A stretch of 64,000 bases of DNA from positions 180,701 through 244,700 of the IMG/VR virus record IMGVR_UViG_3300010213_000001, one strand, 5' to 3'. Of the stretch, positions 15,031 through 36,595 are shown piece after piece. The DNA is from a virus. Its lineage: Duplodnaviria; Heunggongvirae; Uroviricota; Caudoviricetes. Made by a program: the position numbers and the translations under genes. Position 1 is the first letter of the stretch, and every line of letters starts with the position of its first letter. A model generated the notes under the pieces. The model worked only from the letters and a program-made list of their open reading frames with translations, did not search any database and was not told the DNA's origin.

Positions 15031-16024
15031 CTGACCAAACAGCCAAGCAGCGTGGCTTTTCTATTGTTATTATCCCTAGGCTTTTTATCCTAGGCTCTAG
15101 AGGTTTCCCTCATTTGCATCGGTTGGTCAATTCCAACCTAGTATAGCATATATTTTCACCCGCAATACATAATTACATTATGTTTGTTAGGGTGGCGGAC
15201 ACTCGTGGCGGTTTATATTCTTATTTCTAAGTTTCACCCACTATGCGTTACACTAGATAAGAACTTTTAAATTCTTACCTTAGCACGGTACTAGCATACA
15301 TCACTGTTTAGCCTCTACCGTTTTTGCCCACTCATTATCTATAGCATTACTACTATAGACGGCGTATTCTATCTTGTATAATCATGCATCTTTTCAACTT
15401 TTACTGTATTGTACTGGTATTTACTTTTTAAGAATTTCTTCTTTTTAGGTAATGTATTAGTTGAGTTAAGACCTTTTATGTGTTTTTTAATAGTAGTTCT
15501 ATAAACGCCTAATTTATCTACAACTTCTTGTATAGAAATAAATTCATCGTAAAACGTACCATCTCTCTTATAGACGTATATTGTCTTACCTGACGGCTTC
15601 TTTATAGTTCCGTTCTTATATCCTCTCTTTAAAGATTCAGATATTTTTATTTTATCTTCCTCTCTAAATGTTCTTAGAGAGCCTGGACCTTTGTCATAAA
15701 AGTTTGTTAATCTATGTTCGTATTTTTTTATAAGATTTTGTTCTAAAATATACGACTCATTCCAACCTTCTACTTCTGTTAGCTTTCTAACTAATGGTTT
15801 ACAATTTATCTTCAGCAAACTAAGAATCCAATCTCTTTTATGAGTTTTTTCTTTGCCATACTTTGCTCTATGGATATGTTGCGACAACCTAGCTTTAATG
15901 CTAACTTTAGTTCTACCAATATACCGTACTCTACATGTAATTGGGTCTATTAATGCATATATAGTTACTTTCATCCTGTAAACATACAGAATATTCTAGT
16001 AACCTACAAGTTTATAAGAATTTA
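15031..16024 (-). mobile_element. HEG-containing intervening sequence in MoxR-like gene (probable intron, class unresolved)
   Basis: About 1 kb separates the P-loop exon from the rest of the MoxR gene. It contains a GIY-YIG ORF in the same orientation, then a 335-nt ORF-free, GC-richer, hairpin-dense segment (15035..15368) with a P-element-like AAUUGCGGG motif (minus-strand reading of 15153..15166). Canonical R/S elements were not found by eye. Confidence 0.45.
15369..15974 (-). CDS. GIY-YIG homing endonuclease (I-TevI/Seg-like)
   Basis: N-terminus IYALIDPITCRVRYIGRTK...RLSQH is the GIY-YIG motif. Paralogous to the ORF at 31085..32014. Confidence 0.8.
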   Translation of the reverse strand: MKVTIYALIDPITCRVRYIGRTKVSIKARLSQHIHRAKYGKEKTHKRDWILSLLKINCKPLVRKLTEVEGWNESYILEQNLIKKYEHRLTNFYDKGPGSLRTFREEDKIKISESLKRGYKNGTIKKPSGKTIYVYKRDGTFYDEFISIQEVVDKLGVYRTTIKKHIKGLNSTNTLPKKKKFLKSKYQYNTVKVEKMHDYTR

Positions 16025-16237
16025 TTTTCCACCGTAGCCGCCAGGACCGAAGAACATAACATTTTCTTTGGTATTCCACGCATAAGCTAAAGTCTTAGCT
16101 CCACTAAAATTGTGGAGCCTTGAACCTATAACTTGTTGTACTTCAGCTACATCTACCATACTTTCCTTTTCTACAGGATCTACAAGATAGTCCTCTAAGG
16201 ATAAGTTTTTCTTGTTTCTGAAATTTGTAGAAGTCAT
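16025..16237 (-). CDS. MoxR-family AAA+ ATPase, 5' exon (N-terminus and glycine-rich P-loop)
   Basis: ...VAEVQQVIGSRLHNFSGAKTLAYAWNTKENVMFFGPGGYGGK then an in-frame stop. Matches the MoxR N-terminus ('viGq..', 'hvLLeGpPGtGKT'). The P-loop is slightly non-canonical (GPGGYGGK). Exact 5' splice site unresolved. Confidence 0.55.
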
Positions 16238-16239
16238 AA

Positions 16240-17019
16240 CTATTGTAATTTGTATTCTTTTTCCGCTAATAATTTCTCTTCTTCAACTAATATAGAATAT
16301 ACTCTCTGAGCTTCTTTCTTAAGTTGATCAATCTCTAAGTTAGAGTGAAATATAAAATACCAATTATCATCAATAGCTACAATTTCTCCTTTGTGAGAAC
16401 AAATCTCAAATTTACCTATCTGCTCTTCACCGTTCCAAACATTCTTAATTTTTAAATCAATTCTACTTGGACAAAATGCTTCAGCAATTGTTGATCTAAC
16501 AATAAAGGACTTTTGTACACCTTCTTTACTAGATATCTCCTCGTTTTCTATAAAAATTTGTTTAAGCTTTTCATTTACAGTCCCAAACTCTTGCAAAACT
16601 GCATGTTCAAGTTCTTCCTTCAACGAATCCATGATGTCTTTGTATAGCTTGAATTTTCTAGTTTGAAAAGAGTCATTATCTAATACATCTAAAATCTTAT
16701 GATTTGGTGTTACTACTTTTGTACAATTAGAAAATTTTGGACCTTTTCTAGCTACCTTAGGTTTTTCCTCAGCTTGCTTTGCCATTCTTGCAAGTAGCTC
16801 TCCAAGATTGTTTAATGAAGGTTCCTCATCTTGCTCATTAGTATCCCAATTTGGATCATTAGCAAAGTCACGAACTTGCCCGTATAAAAAGGCTGACTTA
16901 GGAACGCCTATCCCCACTTCAAATTTGGAATCTCCTTTGTTTGTTTCTAAGATATACATAGACCAACCATTTTCCAATTGATCTAGAGCAACTATATTTG
17001 TGTTATCTACTAACCTCAT
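16240..17019 (-). CDS. hypothetical protein
   Basis: ORF track; ends 2 nt before the MoxR start. Confidence 0.5.
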   Translation of the reverse strand: MRLVDNTNIVALDQLENGWSMYILETNKGDSKFEVGIGVPKSAFLYGQVRDFANDPNWDTNEQDEEPSLNNLGELLARMAKQAEEKPKVARKGPKFSNCTKVVTPNHKILDVLDNDSFQTRKFKLYKDIMDSLKEELEHAVLQEFGTVNEKLKQIFIENEEISSKEGVQKSFIVRSTIAEAFCPSRIDLKIKNVWNGEEQIGKFEICSHKGEIVAIDDNWYFIFHSNLEIDQLKKEAQRVYSILVEEEKLLAEKEYKLQ

Positions 17020-17254
17020 AATTATTAATTTGCAATTGAGCTAATTTATTATTTACTAGATACATAAATAAATATAGTCTGACTAGACTCTGTTTGTATT
17101 CAGCAAATCTATTTTTGTTTATCCTATCTATGTGGTACTTATATTTATTAATAAGTCTAACACATTGTTTCTCGTTTATAGATTTTAACTTAACTTCTTT
17201 AGAACTTATAGATACCATAAAGTCGTCAGCAACTATGTCTTTAATGTTTACCAT
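17003..17254 (-). CDS. hypothetical protein
   Basis: ORF track. Confidence 0.45.
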   Translation of the reverse strand: MVNIKDIVADDFMVSISSKEVKLKSINEKQCVRLINKYKYHIDRINKNRFAEYKQSLVRLYLFMYLVNNKLAQLQINNYEVSR

Positions 17255-34994: not shown

Positions 34995-35042
34995 TAAATA
35001 TTAAAAATAATAAATCAAGAGACATTTTCCTTCCGATGTGTC
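34995..35042 (-). terminator. putative rho-independent terminator closing the Ro60-like / structured-RNA unit
   Basis: Stem gagacat / atgtgtc (35019..35042, one mismatch), followed on the minus strand by a U-rich tract (plus-strand A-run 34995..35015). Confidence 0.4.
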
Positions 35043-35277
35043 TACCATTCCACCATTGACTACTAAGTAGTCAAGAAGGATTCGAACCTTCACGTCTTAT
35101 GACCTCGGTTTGTAATAGGATTATTGCTGTTAGTCTCTTTTTAGTATTCATCTTAATATAGCATGATACAAAGTTTTACTGGTGTGGGTGCTACCATAAA
35201 CTATATCAAGATGAATGGGTGAACATTGTTCATTTTTATTAGATTAAATTGTTGCTGTACCACACCAAATTTTATCT
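35043..35277 (-). ncRNA. candidate structured ncRNA (Y-RNA-like / tRNA-like) immediately 3' of Ro60-like gene
   Basis: 230-nt ORF-free tail. Contains a perfect T-arm-like GAAGG-UUCGAAU-CCUUC (minus reading of 35070..35090), an adjacent 8-bp hairpin UUGACUAC/GUAGUCAA, and a long-range 7-bp pairing GGUGUGG…CCACACC enclosing about 70 nt. There is no anticodon arm, so it is not a tRNA. Confidence 0.3.
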
Positions 35278-35598
35278 TTACACTTCCAAGTAATTAAATA
35301 TTTCTTGATTCATTACATCTAGGAACATCTCTTCACTTGTCTGTGGTGTACCTTTTTGTCCTTCCACTCCAGTAAGGAAAGCTAGAATTGCTGGATCTAA
35401 ACCAGATATGTGTATCAAATTGGAAGTATCTGCAAATCCTTCAAATTTTCTAGGTGTTGCTCTGCCGTAATAACTATTTGGCATATCCCACAACACAACT
35501 TTGAAGTTATCTACATACTCTTTACTAAATCCATATCTAGCAAGCTTTTTCTTTAGCGTTACAAAATTAGTGTCATTTCCAGTTCTGTTAAATTCTCC
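35278..35598 (-). CDS. Ro60-like (TROVE + vWA) protein, 3' exon
   Basis: Exon begins GEFNRTGNDTNFVTLKKKLARYGF...VVLWDMPNSYYGRATPRKFEGFADTSNLIHISGLDPAILAFL. Joined to exon 1 it gives IVCFSD|GEFN, matching the Ro60 vWA 'IVFTDNETF' segment. The following GLD region matches Ro60 'CGFDTGALDVI'. Confidence 0.55.
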   Translation of the reverse strand, partial: GEFNRTGNDTNFVTLKKKLARYGFSKEYVDNFKVVLWDMPNSYYGRATPRKFEGFADTSNLIHISGLDPAILAFLTGVEGQKGTPQTSEEMFLDVMNQEIFNYLEV

Positions 35599-36595
35599 CA
35601 TTTATGTTAGCTTACTATTTCTAGTAAGATCGGACTATACCTTTATCCTCTCATATTCAAGGATAGCTGATTGTAGTCTCTGAACCTTTACCTCTATATA
35701 ATTATCAAAAACAATTTTCTTTCTCTTAAAGAAACAATCCTCATTTACATCTTTATACATATAAGAATAAAGAGGTAGACTTCTAGTTTTATTGTATAAT
35801 TTTATATTCCAACAATTAGATGCTGTTCTTGTATCTTTATACAATAATTTTGCAGAGCTTTCATATAAATTTACTTTATCTAGTAAAGCTTTTAGAAAGT
35901 CATGAGAACCAGAGAATGTTACATTTAAACTCACATCTTCAGTTCTATTCTTTGCTAAGAAGACGCTACCATCCCCATCAAAGAAACCTCTTACAAAGTG
36001 ATGGAATAAATTATCTGGTATATTAGGAATGTTTTCATTAAATGTTTTGTTTGGTAGTACTCCAAGATTAGCTAAATCATCACATATTTTTTGTGAAGTT
36101 ATATCTAGTCTATATGAAGTCTTTTGAGAATATCTAGATTTATTTTTACTGTTATCAATAGTATAAATCTTCTTATTTGTTTCAAGATATTTAGCAAATA
36201 CTTCTAACGGCTCTTTATCAATGAGACCAAGCTTTAAAACTTGCTGTCTATTTGGTAATTTCTTGCTTATATTACCATCTGCAACTGTAAGCCCTAGAAA
36301 ATATGCTTTATCTTGAGTGTCTATAATCTCAAAATAGGATTCATTTAATGTGTATAGTCTCTTTTTCATAATATTTTTATGAAAATAAACTACTAAATTA
36401 GTAAAATTGTTTTAATATAAAGGTACTTGGCTGCGGATTTTCTCCATGTATTATTCTTTTTTACTATACCTTAATGATTAGTTAAGCCACAATCTATATT
36501 ACTATGATTGTTTAGTAGAATAATCTTTTGAAGAGTTCCCCGTCAATTTACAGCATTTTACACGTACATTACTATACGAGGTGACAGTTGAATTT
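35599..36595 (-). mobile_element. group I intron (td-like, IA2) with LAGLIDADG homing endonuclease, ~1 kb
   Basis: Exon ends …GUGAU. Internal guide GUCAC pairs with it, with a U•G at the splice site. P AAAUUGACGGGGAACUC (36532..36549), Q AAAAUCCGCAGCC (36429..36441), HEG ORF, then R GGUUCAGAGACUACA (35672..35686, overlapping the HEG 3' end), P8 hairpin, S AAGGUAUAGUCCG (35631..35641), P9 hairpin CUUACUA-GAAA-UAGUAAG, terminal G. Confidence 0.8.
35635..36369 (-). CDS. LAGLIDADG homing endonuclease (double-motif, intron-encoded)
   Basis: Motif 1 KAYFLGLTVADGNIS, motif 2 HFVRGFFDGDGSVF. Confidence 0.8.
   Translation of the reverse strand: MKKRLYTLNESYFEIIDTQDKAYFLGLTVADGNISKKLPNRQQVLKLGLIDKEPLEVFAKYLETNKKIYTIDNSKNKSRYSQKTSYRLDITSQKICDDLANLGVLPNKTFNENIPNIPDNLFHHFVRGFFDGDGSVFLAKNRTEDVSLNVTFSGSHDFLKALLDKVNLYESSAKLLYKDTRTASNCWNIKLYNKTRSLPLYSYMYKDVNEDCFFKRKKIVFDNYIEVKVQRLQSAILEYERIKV

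What the first reader, a model, noticed from the sequence alone, without database searches (positions are those of the whole stretch)
15031..36595. Exceptional intron density: at least five self-splicing-intron-like insertions and three intron-encoded homing endonucleases within ~22 kb, all in enzymatic core motifs
Introns lie in the MoxR, JAB, AAA+ (two) and Ro60-like genes. All are on the minus strand and all sit at or within catalytic motifs. Several share td-like core sequences (GGUUCAGAGACUA; AAGAUAUAGUC; AAAUUGCGGGG). A ~50-nt insert inside the tRNA-like element at 59219..59338 reuses 12-mers from the P9 region of one intron. Automatic ORF calling therefore reports each host gene as two or three small ORFs with TTG starts (ORFs starting at 14850, 20810 and 30354 are all TTG). 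Any annotation of this phage would be systematically wrong without intron-aware calling. Further introns may exist in the 59.8–61.1 kb region.
Basis: partly seen in the sequence, partly recalled or inferred. Interest (0 to 1): 0.6.

Follow-up and report, generated by a model that had tools for sequence, protein, structure and literature searches.

The report
Five group I introns splitting phage genes
Four protein genes in a 22-kb stretch of a ~245-kb phage-like contig are interrupted by five self-splicing-type (group I) introns, three of which carry homing-endonuclease genes; this is a dense example of a well-known phenomenon, and it mainly matters because automatic annotation mis-calls the genes.

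Summary
The core of the finding holds. Five intervening sequences lie on the minus strand:
- MoxR gene: 15061-16030
- JAB/JAMM gene: 20808-21235
- AAA+ gene: 30770-32102 and 30352-30610
- DUF2828/vWA-like ("Ro60-like") gene: 35599-36595

All five are phase 0, follow a U and end in G. Removing them restores GPGGYG|KS, H|SHx7SxxD, GRYG|TGKS, LFLED|IDQ and CFSD|GEFN. The spliced proteins align gap-free with uninterrupted homologues at every junction.

Rfam RF00028 passes its threshold for the two AAA+ introns. It gives sub-threshold hits for the JAB and DUF2828 introns, and nothing for the MoxR intron. The MoxR intron instead belongs to a phage intron family (AR9/PBS1, phiR1-37, a crAss-like phage, Clostridium phages) that RF00028 also misses. 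Covariation across that family supports a group I P3/P7 pseudoknot.

Three intron ORFs are homing endonucleases: two paralogous GIY-YIG and one LAGLIDADG.

Not supported:
- The tRNA-like 12-mer reuse is at chance level and not in P9.
- 59.8-61.1 kb looks like a GOLLD-like RNA, not an intron.
- "Exceptional" is overstated, because intron-rich large phages are documented.

Verdict: real, new members of a known kind, modest interest. Splicing itself is inferred, not shown.

The parts
16031..16237 (-). MoxR-like ATPase, exon 1 (ends ...FFGPGGYG)
   Evidence: ORF list. The spliced product has bpMoxR and AAA_5 domains spanning the junction. It aligns gap-free with 12 uninterrupted homologues.
15061..16030 (-). 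MoxR intron, 970 nt. Group I topology, AR9/phiR1-37-type family, not td-like. The candidate guide sequence GCCGU at 15363..15359 pairs with exon ACGGU (U.G at the splice site). The intron ends in G.
   Evidence: No RF00028 hit. The 3' ~94 nt are 88% identical to AR9/PBS1 sequences lying within the AR9 topoisomerase II joined-CDS span, between exon-like segments. Family covariation supports P2, P3, P7, P8, P9, P9.1 and P9.2, including the P3/P7 pseudoknot. P1 candidate.
15369..15974 (-). Intron-encoded GIY-YIG-type homing endonuclease (201 aa), sitting between the 5' splice site and the guide sequence (P1 loop)
   Evidence: NUMOD1 at 21.8 bits. 35% identical (E 2e-26) to the GIY-YIG ORF of AAA+ intron 1.
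13999..15060 (-). MoxR-like ATPase, exon 2 (begins KSHAAWLFGQ...). An in-frame TAG lies immediately upstream and there is no start codon before the TTG at 14850.
   Evidence: Sequence, splice reconstruction, homologue alignment. The public gene call holds only 270 aa of it (P0001).
21236..21508 (-). JAB/JAMM protein, exon 1 (ends ...KCWGH)
   Evidence: and alignment A3.
20808..21235 (-). JAB intron, 428 nt, td-like (IA-type) group I core with no ORF. P1 is GGGUCAU/GUGACCC with U.G. The adjacent P10 is AGUCAU/AUGACU.
   Evidence: RF00028 39.1 bits, E 1.6e-8 in a 521-nt scan, below the gathering score of 50. Core motifs. P1/P10. Core similarity to a sequence inside a Staphylococcus phage lysin gene and to sequences in Vibrio N4-like and crAss-like phages.
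19956..20807 (-). JAB/JAMM protein, exon 2 (begins SHVNMGVSPSGQD)
   Evidence: Splicing restores HSHx7SxxD. H91, S92, H93, V94, N95, M96, P100, S101 and D104 are invariant in nine uninterrupted homologues.
32103..32840 (-). AAA+ ATPase, exon 1 (ends ...LFSGRYG)
   Evidence: Pfam AAA spans residues 239-356, across both junctions.
30770..32102 (-). AAA+ intron 1, 1333 nt, td-like group I core at its 3' end
   Evidence: RF00028 92.2 bits, E 2e-22, at 30829..31116. P1 candidate UAUGGU/GUUAUA at intron position 34, weak.
31085..32014 (-). Intron-encoded GIY-YIG homing endonuclease (309 aa)
   Evidence: PF01541 25.7 bits (cut-off 22.6), NUMOD1 31.3 bits, I-HmuI NUMOD-like.
30611..30769 (-). AAA+ ATPase, exon 2 (TGKS...ILFLED; 53 codons running from Walker A to Walker B)
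   Evidence: Gap-free alignment to an uninterrupted homologue in a 462-kb uncultured phage.
30352..30610 (-). AAA+ intron 2, 259 nt, td-like group I with no ORF. P1 is AGAGGAU/GUUCUCU (U.G). The adjacent P10 is UGAUCA/UGGUCA.
   Evidence: RF00028 50.8 bits against a gathering score of 50. P1/P10.
29809..30351 (-). AAA+ ATPase, exon 3 (begins IDQVARGD)
36596..37993 (-). DUF2828/DUF7788 ('Ro60-like', vWA-like) protein, exon 1 (ends ...GIVCFSD)
   Evidence: phrog_850 'RNA-binding protein' matches residues 36-548 as one stretch.
35599..36595 (-). DUF2828 gene intron, 997 nt, td-like group I. The ORF starts in the P6 region and runs into P7-P8-P7'. P1 is GUGAU/GUCAC (U.G).
   Evidence: RF00028 gives two half-hits, 34.7 bits (E 6.7e-7, P7-P9 half) and 16.8 bits (P4-P6 half), on either side of the ORF. 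Motifs. P1.
35635..36369 (-). Intron-encoded double-motif LAGLIDADG homing endonuclease (244 aa)
   Evidence: PF14528 41.9 bits (cut-off 22.5), two stretches. phrog_4645 'endonuclease', E 3e-47.
35278..35598 (-). DUF2828/DUF7788 protein, exon 2 (begins GEFNRTGND)
   Evidence: Gap-free alignment GIVCFSDGEFNRTG / GIICISDGEFDSTK with Leptolyngbya phage Lbo-JY46 (40% identity over 551 aligned positions, about 95% of the protein, E 6e-145).

Best explanation
All five insertions are group I introns in a large phage-like genome (a contig of about 244.5 kb).

Proposed mechanism: each intron is transcribed within its host mRNA and folds into the group I core (P3-P9 with the P3/P7 pseudoknot). Each has a candidate guide sequence that could pair with the 5' exon so that a U.G wobble marks the splice site. 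The intron is removed by two guanosine-initiated transesterifications that end at its terminal G. This joins the exons in frame and restores a conserved motif.

Four introns have the td/IA2-like core that is common in phages. The MoxR intron belongs to a different, widely scattered phage intron family that the Rfam group I model does not recognise.

Three introns carry homing-endonuclease genes (two paralogous GIY-YIG, one LAGLIDADG). These would cut intron-less alleles in co-infecting relatives and copy the intron in by repair. The two ORF-less introns are either relics or are mobilised in trans.

Shown here: the anatomy, the ribozyme-core signatures, covariation for the MoxR-type family, exact restoration of the proteins, and intron-less homologues.

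Inferred, not shown: that splicing happens and is autocatalytic, and that the endonucleases are active.
For: 1. RF00028 hits: 92.2 and 50.8 bits for the two AAA+ introns, at or above the gathering score; 39.1 bits, E 1.6e-8, for the JAB intron; 34.7 plus 16.8 bits flanking the ORF in the DUF2828 intron.
2. The MoxR intron's 3' core matches sequences that sit between the halves of split genes in other phages. In AR9 the topoisomerase II CDS is annotated as a three-piece join. The other cases are phiR1-37 topoII (with an endonuclease ORF between the halves), BpSp gyrA, a crAss cr6_1 helicase (next to a 'mobile intron protein'), a C. perfringens phage terminase and a CBP1 tail gene.
3. On an 8-member alignment of that family, a hand-drawn P2/P3/P7/P8/P9/P9.1/P9.2 structure containing the P3/P7 pseudoknot has 98.6% of cells paired. 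23 of 38 pairs show compensatory changes. No shuffle out of 500 reached the observed pairing or covariation. Slid controls give 25-45% paired.
4. All five junctions are phase 0, follow U, and the introns end in G. A guide sequence giving U.G at the splice site exists for each. Textbook adjacent P10 pairings exist for the JAB intron and AAA+ intron 2.
5. Pfam domains run straight across the AAA+, MoxR and DUF2828 junctions (AAA 1-128/131, AAA_5 1-139/139, DUF7788 3-184/221).
6. Uninterrupted homologues align without a gap at every junction, and the junctions are flanked by invariant or matching residues: MoxR G69|K70, JAB H91|S92, AAA+ YG|TGK and ED|ID, DUF2828 SD|GE.
7. MoxR exon 2 has an in-frame TAG directly upstream and no start codon for its first 70 conserved codons.
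8. Endonuclease families for the intron ORFs.
Against: - No RNA data, so splicing is not demonstrated.
- Three of the five introns do not reach RF00028's curated threshold, and the MoxR intron scores nothing.
- The covariation test uses a structure I drew from these same sequences. P4-P6 were too poorly aligned by MAFFT to count.
- P1 for AAA+ intron 1 is weak (6 bp, 3 of them wobbles) with competing candidates. The MoxR intron has no convincing P10.
- GIY-YIG is not called by Pfam for the MoxR-intron ORF, and its NUMOD1 score is just below the cut-off.
Confidence: 0.9

Rival explanations
1. The genes are split at the DNA level by endonuclease-gene insertions and expressed as separate polypeptides that reassemble. 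Split genes of this kind are known in T4-like phages. On this view there is no RNA splicing.
For: Three insertions contain endonuclease ORFs. ORF callers do find TTG-start ORFs for the downstream pieces. A further GIY-YIG gene at 63127..63777 has no group I signal around it.
Against: - Two insertions (JAB, AAA+ intron 2) have no ORF at all.
- The breaks fall inside Walker A, Walker B and JAMM motifs. The TTG starts lie well downstream of conserved exon sequence. MoxR exon 2 has 70 conserved codons with no start and a TAG just upstream.
- AAA+ exon 2 would be a 53-residue fragment.
- Ribozyme cores are present in all five.
Confidence: 0.04
2. The introns are real, but some are decayed and no longer splice, so the host genes are pseudogenes in this genome.
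For: Three introns score below RF00028's threshold. P1 of AAA+ intron 1 is weak and P10 of the MoxR intron is missing. This is a single metagenomic contig.
Against: - All exons keep open frames and the invariant residues of their families.
- Core helices are fully paired in the MoxR intron.
- All three endonuclease ORFs are intact.
- The sub-threshold scores are explained by long ORF and peripheral insertions, and by a family the model does not cover. The AR9 sequences, which lie in a CDS annotated as joined, also score nothing.
Confidence: 0.05
3. The insertions are removed or skipped by some other route, such as group II introns, inteins or translational bypass.
For: None specific. Considered only because the MoxR insertion is invisible to RF00028.
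Against: - No group II family reached its threshold anywhere in the window.
- The inserts do not continue the host reading frame. An in-frame stop follows the last conserved exon codon within 0-8 codons of each junction, which excludes inteins.
- From general knowledge, the characterised T4 gene 60 bypass covers about 50 nt, whereas these inserts are 259-1333 nt.
- The MoxR-type family shows group I topology.
Confidence: 0.01

Closest known systems
Phage td-type (subgroup IA2-like) group I introns, such as T4 td/nrdB/nrdD, the Staphylococcus phage Twort and K introns, and the Vibrio N4-like phage introns
   Same: - The J6/7-P7 (GGUUCAGAGACUA) and J8/7-P7' (AAGAUAUAGUC) core motifs, P7.1/P7.2-type inserts, U.G at the 5' splice site and a terminal G.
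- ORFs looped out of the core.
- Insertion at highly conserved codons.
- 68-80% core similarity to sequences in Staphylococcus phage (inside a lysin gene), Vibrio N4-like phages, Listeria phage (inside a DNA polymerase I gene) and crAss-like phages.
- More than half of viral group I introns are IA2 (PMC11835236).
   Different: - The host genes are not the usual DNA and nucleotide-metabolism genes (PMC12908238). They are a MoxR ATPase, a JAMM protein, an AAA+ ATPase and a DUF2828/vWA-like protein.
- Subgroup assignment was not tested with subgroup-specific models.
The AR9/PBS1 topoisomerase II introns and their relatives in phiR1-37, BpSp, crAss cr6_1, Caldibacillus CBP1 and C. perfringens phages
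   Same: - The MoxR intron shares 71-88% identity over its 3' 95-185 nt with these.
- It shares the conserved GCCGU guide sequence after a 5' exon ending in GGU, the same P2-P3-P7-P8-P9-P9.1-P9.2 layout, and an ORF in the same P1 loop as in phiR1-37.
   Different: - It sits in a MoxR Walker A codon rather than in gyrA/topoII, helicase, terminase or tail genes.
- It carries a GIY-YIG ORF, whereas phiR1-37 carries a LAGLIDADG-type ORF and the AR9 copies have none.
- The whole family is missed by RF00028. I could not find its published subgroup, because the AR9 paper is not held.
Intron-rich large gut phages (Jug phages, crAss-like phages)
   Same: - Many genes are fragmented by group I introns and homing endonucleases, which misleads gene prediction.
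- Jug phages average 18.5 group I introns per 360-402-kb genome, and 37 of 76 tested were confirmed by metatranscriptome reads (PMC12880540).
   Different: - Here the local density is higher: 5 in 21.6 kb, against about 1 per 20 kb on average. Only 64 kb of a ~245-kb contig was seen.
- No nucleotide-level relative was found in the phage collection.

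Membership tests
Group I intron (Rfam RF00028) | Covariance-model score at or above the curated gathering score (50 bits) | tested here: inconclusive
   Met for AAA+ intron 1 (92.2 bits) and AAA+ intron 2 (50.8 bits). Not met for the JAB intron (39.1), the DUF2828 intron (34.7 plus 16.8) or the MoxR intron (no hit). The AR9 relatives, which lie in a CDS annotated as joined, also give no hit, so the model does not cover that family.
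Group I intron | Conserved core topology: P3 paired across P4-P6 and the 5' strand of P7, with P8 lying between P3' and P7' (the P3/P7 pseudoknot) | tested here: met
   For the four td-like introns, the RF00028 alignments place P3-P9. For the MoxR-type family: 98.6% of cells paired, 23 of 38 pairs with compensatory changes, P3 with 4 of 6 and P8 with 3 of 5 covarying pairs, P7 switching GCAUA/UAUGC to GCGUA/UACGC, and slid controls at 25-45%. P4-P6 could not be counted because of poor alignment.
Group I intron | The 5' exon ends in U, paired as U.G with an internal guide sequence (P1), and the intron ends in G | tested here: met
   All five follow U and end in G. U.G-containing P1 candidates: JAB 7 bp, AAA+ intron 2 7 bp, DUF2828 5 bp, MoxR 5 bp (GCCGU, conserved in relatives), AAA+ intron 1 6 bp and weak. 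Adjacent P10 pairings of 6 bp exist for JAB and AAA+ intron 2.
Group I intron | Excision restores a continuous, functional host sequence | tested here: met
   There are gap-free alignments with uninterrupted homologues at all five junctions. Pfam domains span the junctions.
Group I intron | Guanosine-dependent self-splicing of the transcript | not testable with these tools
   This needs in vitro transcription and splicing, or RNA-seq.
GIY-YIG homing endonuclease | GIY-YIG catalytic domain (PF01541) plus a DNA-binding module | tested here: met
   31085..32014: PF01541 25.7 bits against a cut-off of 22.6, NUMOD1 31.3 bits. 15369..15974: PF01541 not reported and NUMOD1 21.8 against 22.8, but 35% identical (E 2e-26) to the former from residue 5, including the IY...YIG region. 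So the first is met directly and the second by homology only.
LAGLIDADG homing endonuclease | LAGLIDADG domain or domains above the Pfam cut-off | tested here: met
   35635..36369: PF14528 41.9 bits against 22.5, with two stretches. The motifs LGLTVADGN and RGFFDGDGS are visible in the translation.
   Pfam gives DUF2828 and DUF7788 only. There is no PDB sequence match at E<=1. PHROGs calls the family 'RNA-binding protein'. No fold-level comparison was made.
   53.6 bits, E 7e-13 in a 1.3-kb scan, full-length model match at 59979..60372. It is GOLLD-like, but not a member by Rfam's criterion.

The most novel reading that the evidence does not exclude
The MoxR intron represents a widespread phage group I lineage (AR9/PBS1, phiR1-37, crAss-like, Clostridium and Caldibacillus phages) that the standard Rfam model cannot see. 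Censuses seeded from RF00028 would therefore undercount it.

In this genome, paralogous GIY-YIG endonucleases sit in the same position, just after the 5' splice site, in two different ribozyme scaffolds. Both are inserted at Walker A 'TAYGGT|A' codons of two unrelated P-loop ATPases. This would be a trace of endonuclease-driven hopping of introns between analogous motifs, spreading them into non-replicative genes.
Probability: 0.3. Interest if true: 0.5.

Novelty: new member of a known kind. Interest (0 to 1): 0.35.

Why it matters
Practical. The public gene calls for this contig already hold truncated products (270-aa MoxR and 279-aa JAB fragments). Domain-based annotation of this phage, and of the MoxR-vWA and Ubl-E1-JAB modules it carries, will be wrong unless gene calling takes introns into account.

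Methodological. One of the five introns, and its relatives in well-studied phages such as AR9 and phiR1-37, score nothing with RF00028. Another is lost by the model's filters in a 25-kb scan. Intron counts based on that model alone are therefore underestimates.

Biological. This adds non-DNA-metabolism genes (ATPases, a JAMM protein and a vWA-like protein) to the list of phage intron hosts. It also gives a small natural example of related endonucleases in unrelated ribozyme scaffolds at analogous P-loop codons.

None of this changes the established picture of phage group I introns.

Tried and rejected
- Near-identity search of the 22-kb region against 50,697 phage records: no match.
- RF00028 and all other Rfam families on the MoxR insertion alone and on three homologous loci: nothing. 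This is why I turned to family covariation.
- tblastn of the spliced MoxR and JAB proteins against phages: no match. Homologues came from the metagenome protein search instead.
- The AR9 genome paper could not be read, so the published class of the AR9 topoII introns is not cited.
- MAFFT mis-aligned P4-P6 and the P7.1 base in the MoxR-type family. Those helices were seen by eye to covary but were left out of the count.
- Further introns:
  - Motif scans and inspection of every minus-strand gap of 100 nt or more found none.
  - The 59.8-61.1 kb gap is GOLLD-like.
  - The 62.75-64 kb region around a fourth GIY-YIG gene gave no group I hit. It lies 249 nt from the contig end, so a sixth intron there cannot be excluded or shown.
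- The tRNA-like 12-mer reuse is at chance level.
- Group II introns, inteins and translational bypass were considered and rejected (see the rival explanations).
- Side leads:
  - A small covariance model of the hairpin array at 38.4-38.8 kb retrieved its six seeds but no non-seed unit significantly.
  - Minimum-free-energy folding did not favour the tRNA-like fold of the element at 35.0-35.1 kb.
  - No PDB sequence match for the DUF2828 protein, and no useful literature on DUF2828.

Full report
WHAT IS THERE

All long reading frames in the window lie on the minus strand. G+C is 31%. Exact-sequence look-ups place the window at the end of a JGI metagenome contig of about 244.5 kb. No record in the phage collection is similar at the nucleotide level.

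Within 15-37 kb, four genes are each broken by one or two non-coding or endonuclease-coding inserts.

SPLICE SITES AND RESTORED PROTEINS

I looked for the conserved motif halves on either side of each insert, and required a 5' exon ending in U and an insert ending in G. That gives five introns:

| Host gene | Intron (minus strand) | Length |
|---|---|---|
| MoxR | 16030->15061 | 970 nt |
| JAB | 21235->20808 | 428 nt |
| AAA+ intron 1 | 32102->30770 | 1333 nt |
| AAA+ intron 2 | 30610->30352 | 259 nt |
| DUF2828 gene | 36595->35599 | 997 nt |

All five are in phase 0. Removing them gives the following:
- GPGGYG|KS, the Walker A motif of MoxR.
- CWGH|SHVNMGVSPSGQD, a complete JAMM HxHx7SxxD motif.
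- SGRYG|TGKS and ILFLED|IDQ, the Walker A and Walker B motifs of the AAA+ protein, with a 53-codon middle exon between them.
- VCFSD|GEFN, in the vWA-like domain.

Pfam domains run uninterrupted across the junctions of the AAA+, MoxR and DUF2828 genes: AAA_5 1-139/139 and bpMoxR, AAA 1-128/131, DUF7788 3-184/221. The JAB match is weak and starts exactly at the junction.

INTRON-LESS HOMOLOGUES

- MoxR: 49 of the 50 hits look uninterrupted by length (285-524 aa), and 12 were aligned. There is no gap at the junction, and G64, G66, G67, G69 and K70 are invariant.
- JAB: nine homologues are gap-free, with H91, S92, H93, V94, N95, M96, P100, S101 and D104 invariant.
- AAA+: there are single-piece tblastn matches spanning both junctions in 18 phage records. 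Pairwise alignments give YGTGK and EDID without gaps.
- DUF2828: 94 phage records cover at least 80% of the protein in one piece. The best is Leptolyngbya phage Lbo-JY46, 40% identical across the junction (SDGEF).

The only database entries identical to this contig's MoxR and JAB are the truncated exon-2 ORFs (P0001, 270 aa; P0051, 279 aa). This confirms that automatic annotation was misled.

MoxR exon 2 has an in-frame TAG immediately before its first codon. It has no start codon for 70 conserved codons. It therefore cannot be translated on its own.

RIBOZYME EVIDENCE, FOUR TD-LIKE INTRONS

- RF00028 passes its gathering score for the two AAA+ introns: 92.2 and 50.8 bits.
- The JAB intron was missed in both the whole-window scan and the 25-kb scan. 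Scanned alone it scores 39.1 bits (E 1.6e-8).
- The DUF2828 intron gives two half-matches, 34.7 and 16.8 bits, on either side of its ORF.
- A script found guide sequences that give a U.G pair at each 5' splice site. The JAB intron has GGGUCAU/GUGACCC followed directly by a 6-bp P10 (AGUCAU/AUGACU). AAA+ intron 2 has AGAGGAU/GUUCUCU plus the P10 UGAUCA/UGGUCA. The DUF2828 intron has GUGAU/GUCAC. AAA+ intron 1 has only a weak UAUGGU/GUUAUA.
- Their cores resemble sequences inside a Staphylococcus phage lysin gene, in Vibrio N4-like phages, inside a Listeria phage DNA polymerase gene, and in crAss-like phages, at 68-80% identity.

RIBOZYME EVIDENCE, THE MOXR INTRON

RF00028 finds nothing here. 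The 308 nt after the ORF fold far better than shuffles (z = -5.0). They match other phages at 71-88% identity.

In every case inspected, the match lies just upstream of the second half of a split gene:
- AR9 topoisomerase II, whose CDS is annotated as a three-piece join.
- phiR1-37 topoisomerase II, with an endonuclease between the halves.
- A C. perfringens phage terminase.
- BpSp gyrA, a crAss cr6_1 helicase next to a 'mobile intron protein', a CBP1 tail gene, and a Staphylococcus phage tail gene.

RF00028 misses these too.

I aligned eight members and drew P2, P3, P7, P8, P9, P9.1 and P9.2 by hand. The helices covary strongly. Examples:
- P3: GUGGGC/GUCCGC, AUGGGG/CCCCAU, UCGAGC/GUUCGA.
- P7: GCAUA/UAUGC against GCGUA/UACGC.
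- P8: CACCC/GGGUG, UAACC/GGUUA.

Counting gives 98.6% of cells paired and 23 of 38 pairs with changes on both sides. No shuffle out of 500 reached the observed pairing or covariation. Slid controls give only 25-45% paired.

P3 (positions 36-41 with 167-172) and P7 (121-125 with 217-221) cross, with P8 nested between P3' and P7'. That is the defining group I topology. J8/7 (AAGAUAU) is also the same as in the td-like introns.

The guide sequence GCCGU lies directly after the ORF stop. It pairs with the exon end ACGGU and is conserved in the relatives, all of which follow ...GGU. So the ORF sits in the P1 loop, as it does in phiR1-37.

Caveats. I derived the structure from these same sequences. 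P4-P6 were too poorly aligned to count. No P10 is evident.

THE ENDONUCLEASES

- 31085..32014 is GIY-YIG plus NUMOD1.
- 35635..36369 is a double-motif LAGLIDADG.
- 15369..15974 scores only NUMOD1, just under its cut-off. It is 35% identical (E 2e-26) to the other GIY-YIG protein from its N-terminus.

The two GIY-YIG paralogues both lie just after the 5' splice site, in different ribozyme scaffolds. Both are at Walker A sites reading TAYGGT|A. This is compatible with independent movement of the endonuclease and the ribozyme, and with target switching between analogous motifs. It is an inference, not something tested here.

CLAIMS THAT DO NOT HOLD

- The two 12-mers shared by the tRNA-like element at 59219..59339 come from two different introns, at positions 15 and 131. 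Neither is in P9. In 12% of random length-matched sets at least two 12-mers are shared.
- The 1.26-kb gap at 59832..61088 gives a full-length but sub-threshold GOLLD match (53.6 bits, E 7e-13) and no intron signal.
- I found no further intron in any gap of 100 nt or more.
- A fourth, unrelated GIY-YIG gene at 63127..63777 lies 249 nt from the contig end. It has no group I hit around it, so a sixth intron there remains open.
- 'Ro60-like' is not established.

HOW UNUSUAL IS THIS?

- Insertion at conserved, often active-site codons is the expected behaviour of mobile introns. DNA-metabolism genes are their usual hosts in phages (PMC12908238).
- Gene fragmentation by many group I introns is documented. 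Jug phages carry 18.5 per genome on average, with 37 of 76 tested confirmed by RNA reads. It is also noted for crAss-like phages (PMC12880540).
- More than half of viral group I introns are IA2 (PMC11835236).
- Five introns in 21.6 kb is locally dense, and the host genes are unusual. The kind of element and its mechanism are known.

VERDICT

These are new members of a known kind. The most useful by-products are the exact exon coordinates and the demonstration that RF00028 alone would have reported two of the five introns.

Noticed in passing
window 38384..38842 (-): A tandem array of eight small hairpins, 42-67 nt each. Each has a 6-8 bp stem of different sequence (AGUGCAC/GUGCACU, AAGACUC/GAGUCUU, AGAAUACU/AGUAUUCU and so on). 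Each stem's 5' strand is followed directly, or after one spacer base, by the conserved motif [AU][AU]CAGCAA, and the units are flanked by UAAG...GAUAA. WACAGCAA occurs 14 times in the window against 5.3 expected, and 7 of those are here. The only Rfam family resembling a unit is Dictyostelium Class I RNA (21.6 bits, far below threshold), which to my recollection also has a short terminal stem followed by CCUUACAGCAA. A small covariance model found its six seed units again but did not retrieve non-seed units significantly.
   Followed up: partly
window 35017..35139 (-), with related sites at 37958..37995 and 52518..52754: Just downstream of the DUF2828/'Ro60-like' gene, the same 'stem plus AACAGCAA' (AAGAGAC/GUCUCUU) encloses what reads as a circularly permuted tRNA-like module. 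The module has a T arm (GAAGGUUCGAAUCCUUC), an acceptor-like hairpin closed by a loop (UUGACUAC-UUAG-UAGUCAA), and a D-arm-like segment (GUGGAAUGGUAGACAC). From memory, this is the layout of bacterial YrlA/Y RNAs, which are encoded next to Ro60 genes. A further stem-plus-motif unit (AGAUGUU...AACAUCU) overlaps the start codon of the DUF2828 gene itself, which would suit autoregulation.
   Followed up: partly
window 59832..61088 (-); best match 59979..60372: A 1.26-kb non-coding stretch with a full-length, sub-threshold match to GOLLD RNA (RF02032, 53.6 bits against a gathering score of 150, E 7e-13 in a 1.3-kb scan). It lies among tRNA-like elements.
   Followed up: partly
window minus strand: 63944..63960, 59227..59243, 58378..58394, 56070..56086, 51889..51905, 46453..46469, 35075..35091: Seven T-arm-like hairpins (5-bp stem plus UUCGAnU loop). 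Only one belongs to a standard tRNA (tRNA-Met, 58369..58443). The elements at 51881..51990 and 59219..59339 pass the Rfam tRNA threshold, the latter barely. Both carry ~50-nt inserts at the variable-arm position, and by eye they have 8-nt anticodon loops. ARAGORN calls an odd tRNA with a 2-base anticodon at 46444..46512.
   Followed up: no
window 62836..64000 (-): A fourth homing-endonuclease gene (GIY-YIG, 63127..63777, unrelated to the two intron-borne ones), flanked by about 220 nt of non-coding sequence upstream and about 350 nt downstream. The contig ends 249 nt upstream of the gene. There is no group I hit, so this is either a free-standing endonuclease or part of an intron whose 5' part lies beyond the contig end.
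   Followed up: partly
window 12608..21508 (-): The intron-bearing MoxR gene is followed by a vWA protein (12608..14014, with a DDSSS MIDAS-like motif). The intron-bearing JAB gene heads a JAB / E1-like (19258..19953, GCGATGS) / small ubiquitin-like (18939..19199) set. Together these look like a phage-borne MoxR-vWA pair beside a ubiquitin-like conjugation module.
   Followed up: no
introns at 15061..15100, 30352..30390, 20808..20845 and 30770..30805 (-): The introns share two kinds of 3'-terminal module regardless of core type. The MoxR intron and AAA+ intron 2 both end with a GGAUAAA(A/G)AGCC-loop hairpin followed by GAUAA(U)AACAA...G, which is also seen in the Clostridium and Caldibacillus phage introns. 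The JAB intron and AAA+ intron 1 both end with a hairpin whose loop is UAGCGAA.
   Followed up: no
window 28524..29129 (-): A predicted lipoprotein whose signal peptide ends ...LFTSCNDPSEE. An acidic stretch after the lipobox cysteine is, from memory, typical of Bacteroidota surface-lipoprotein export signals. This hints at a Bacteroidota host.
   Followed up: no
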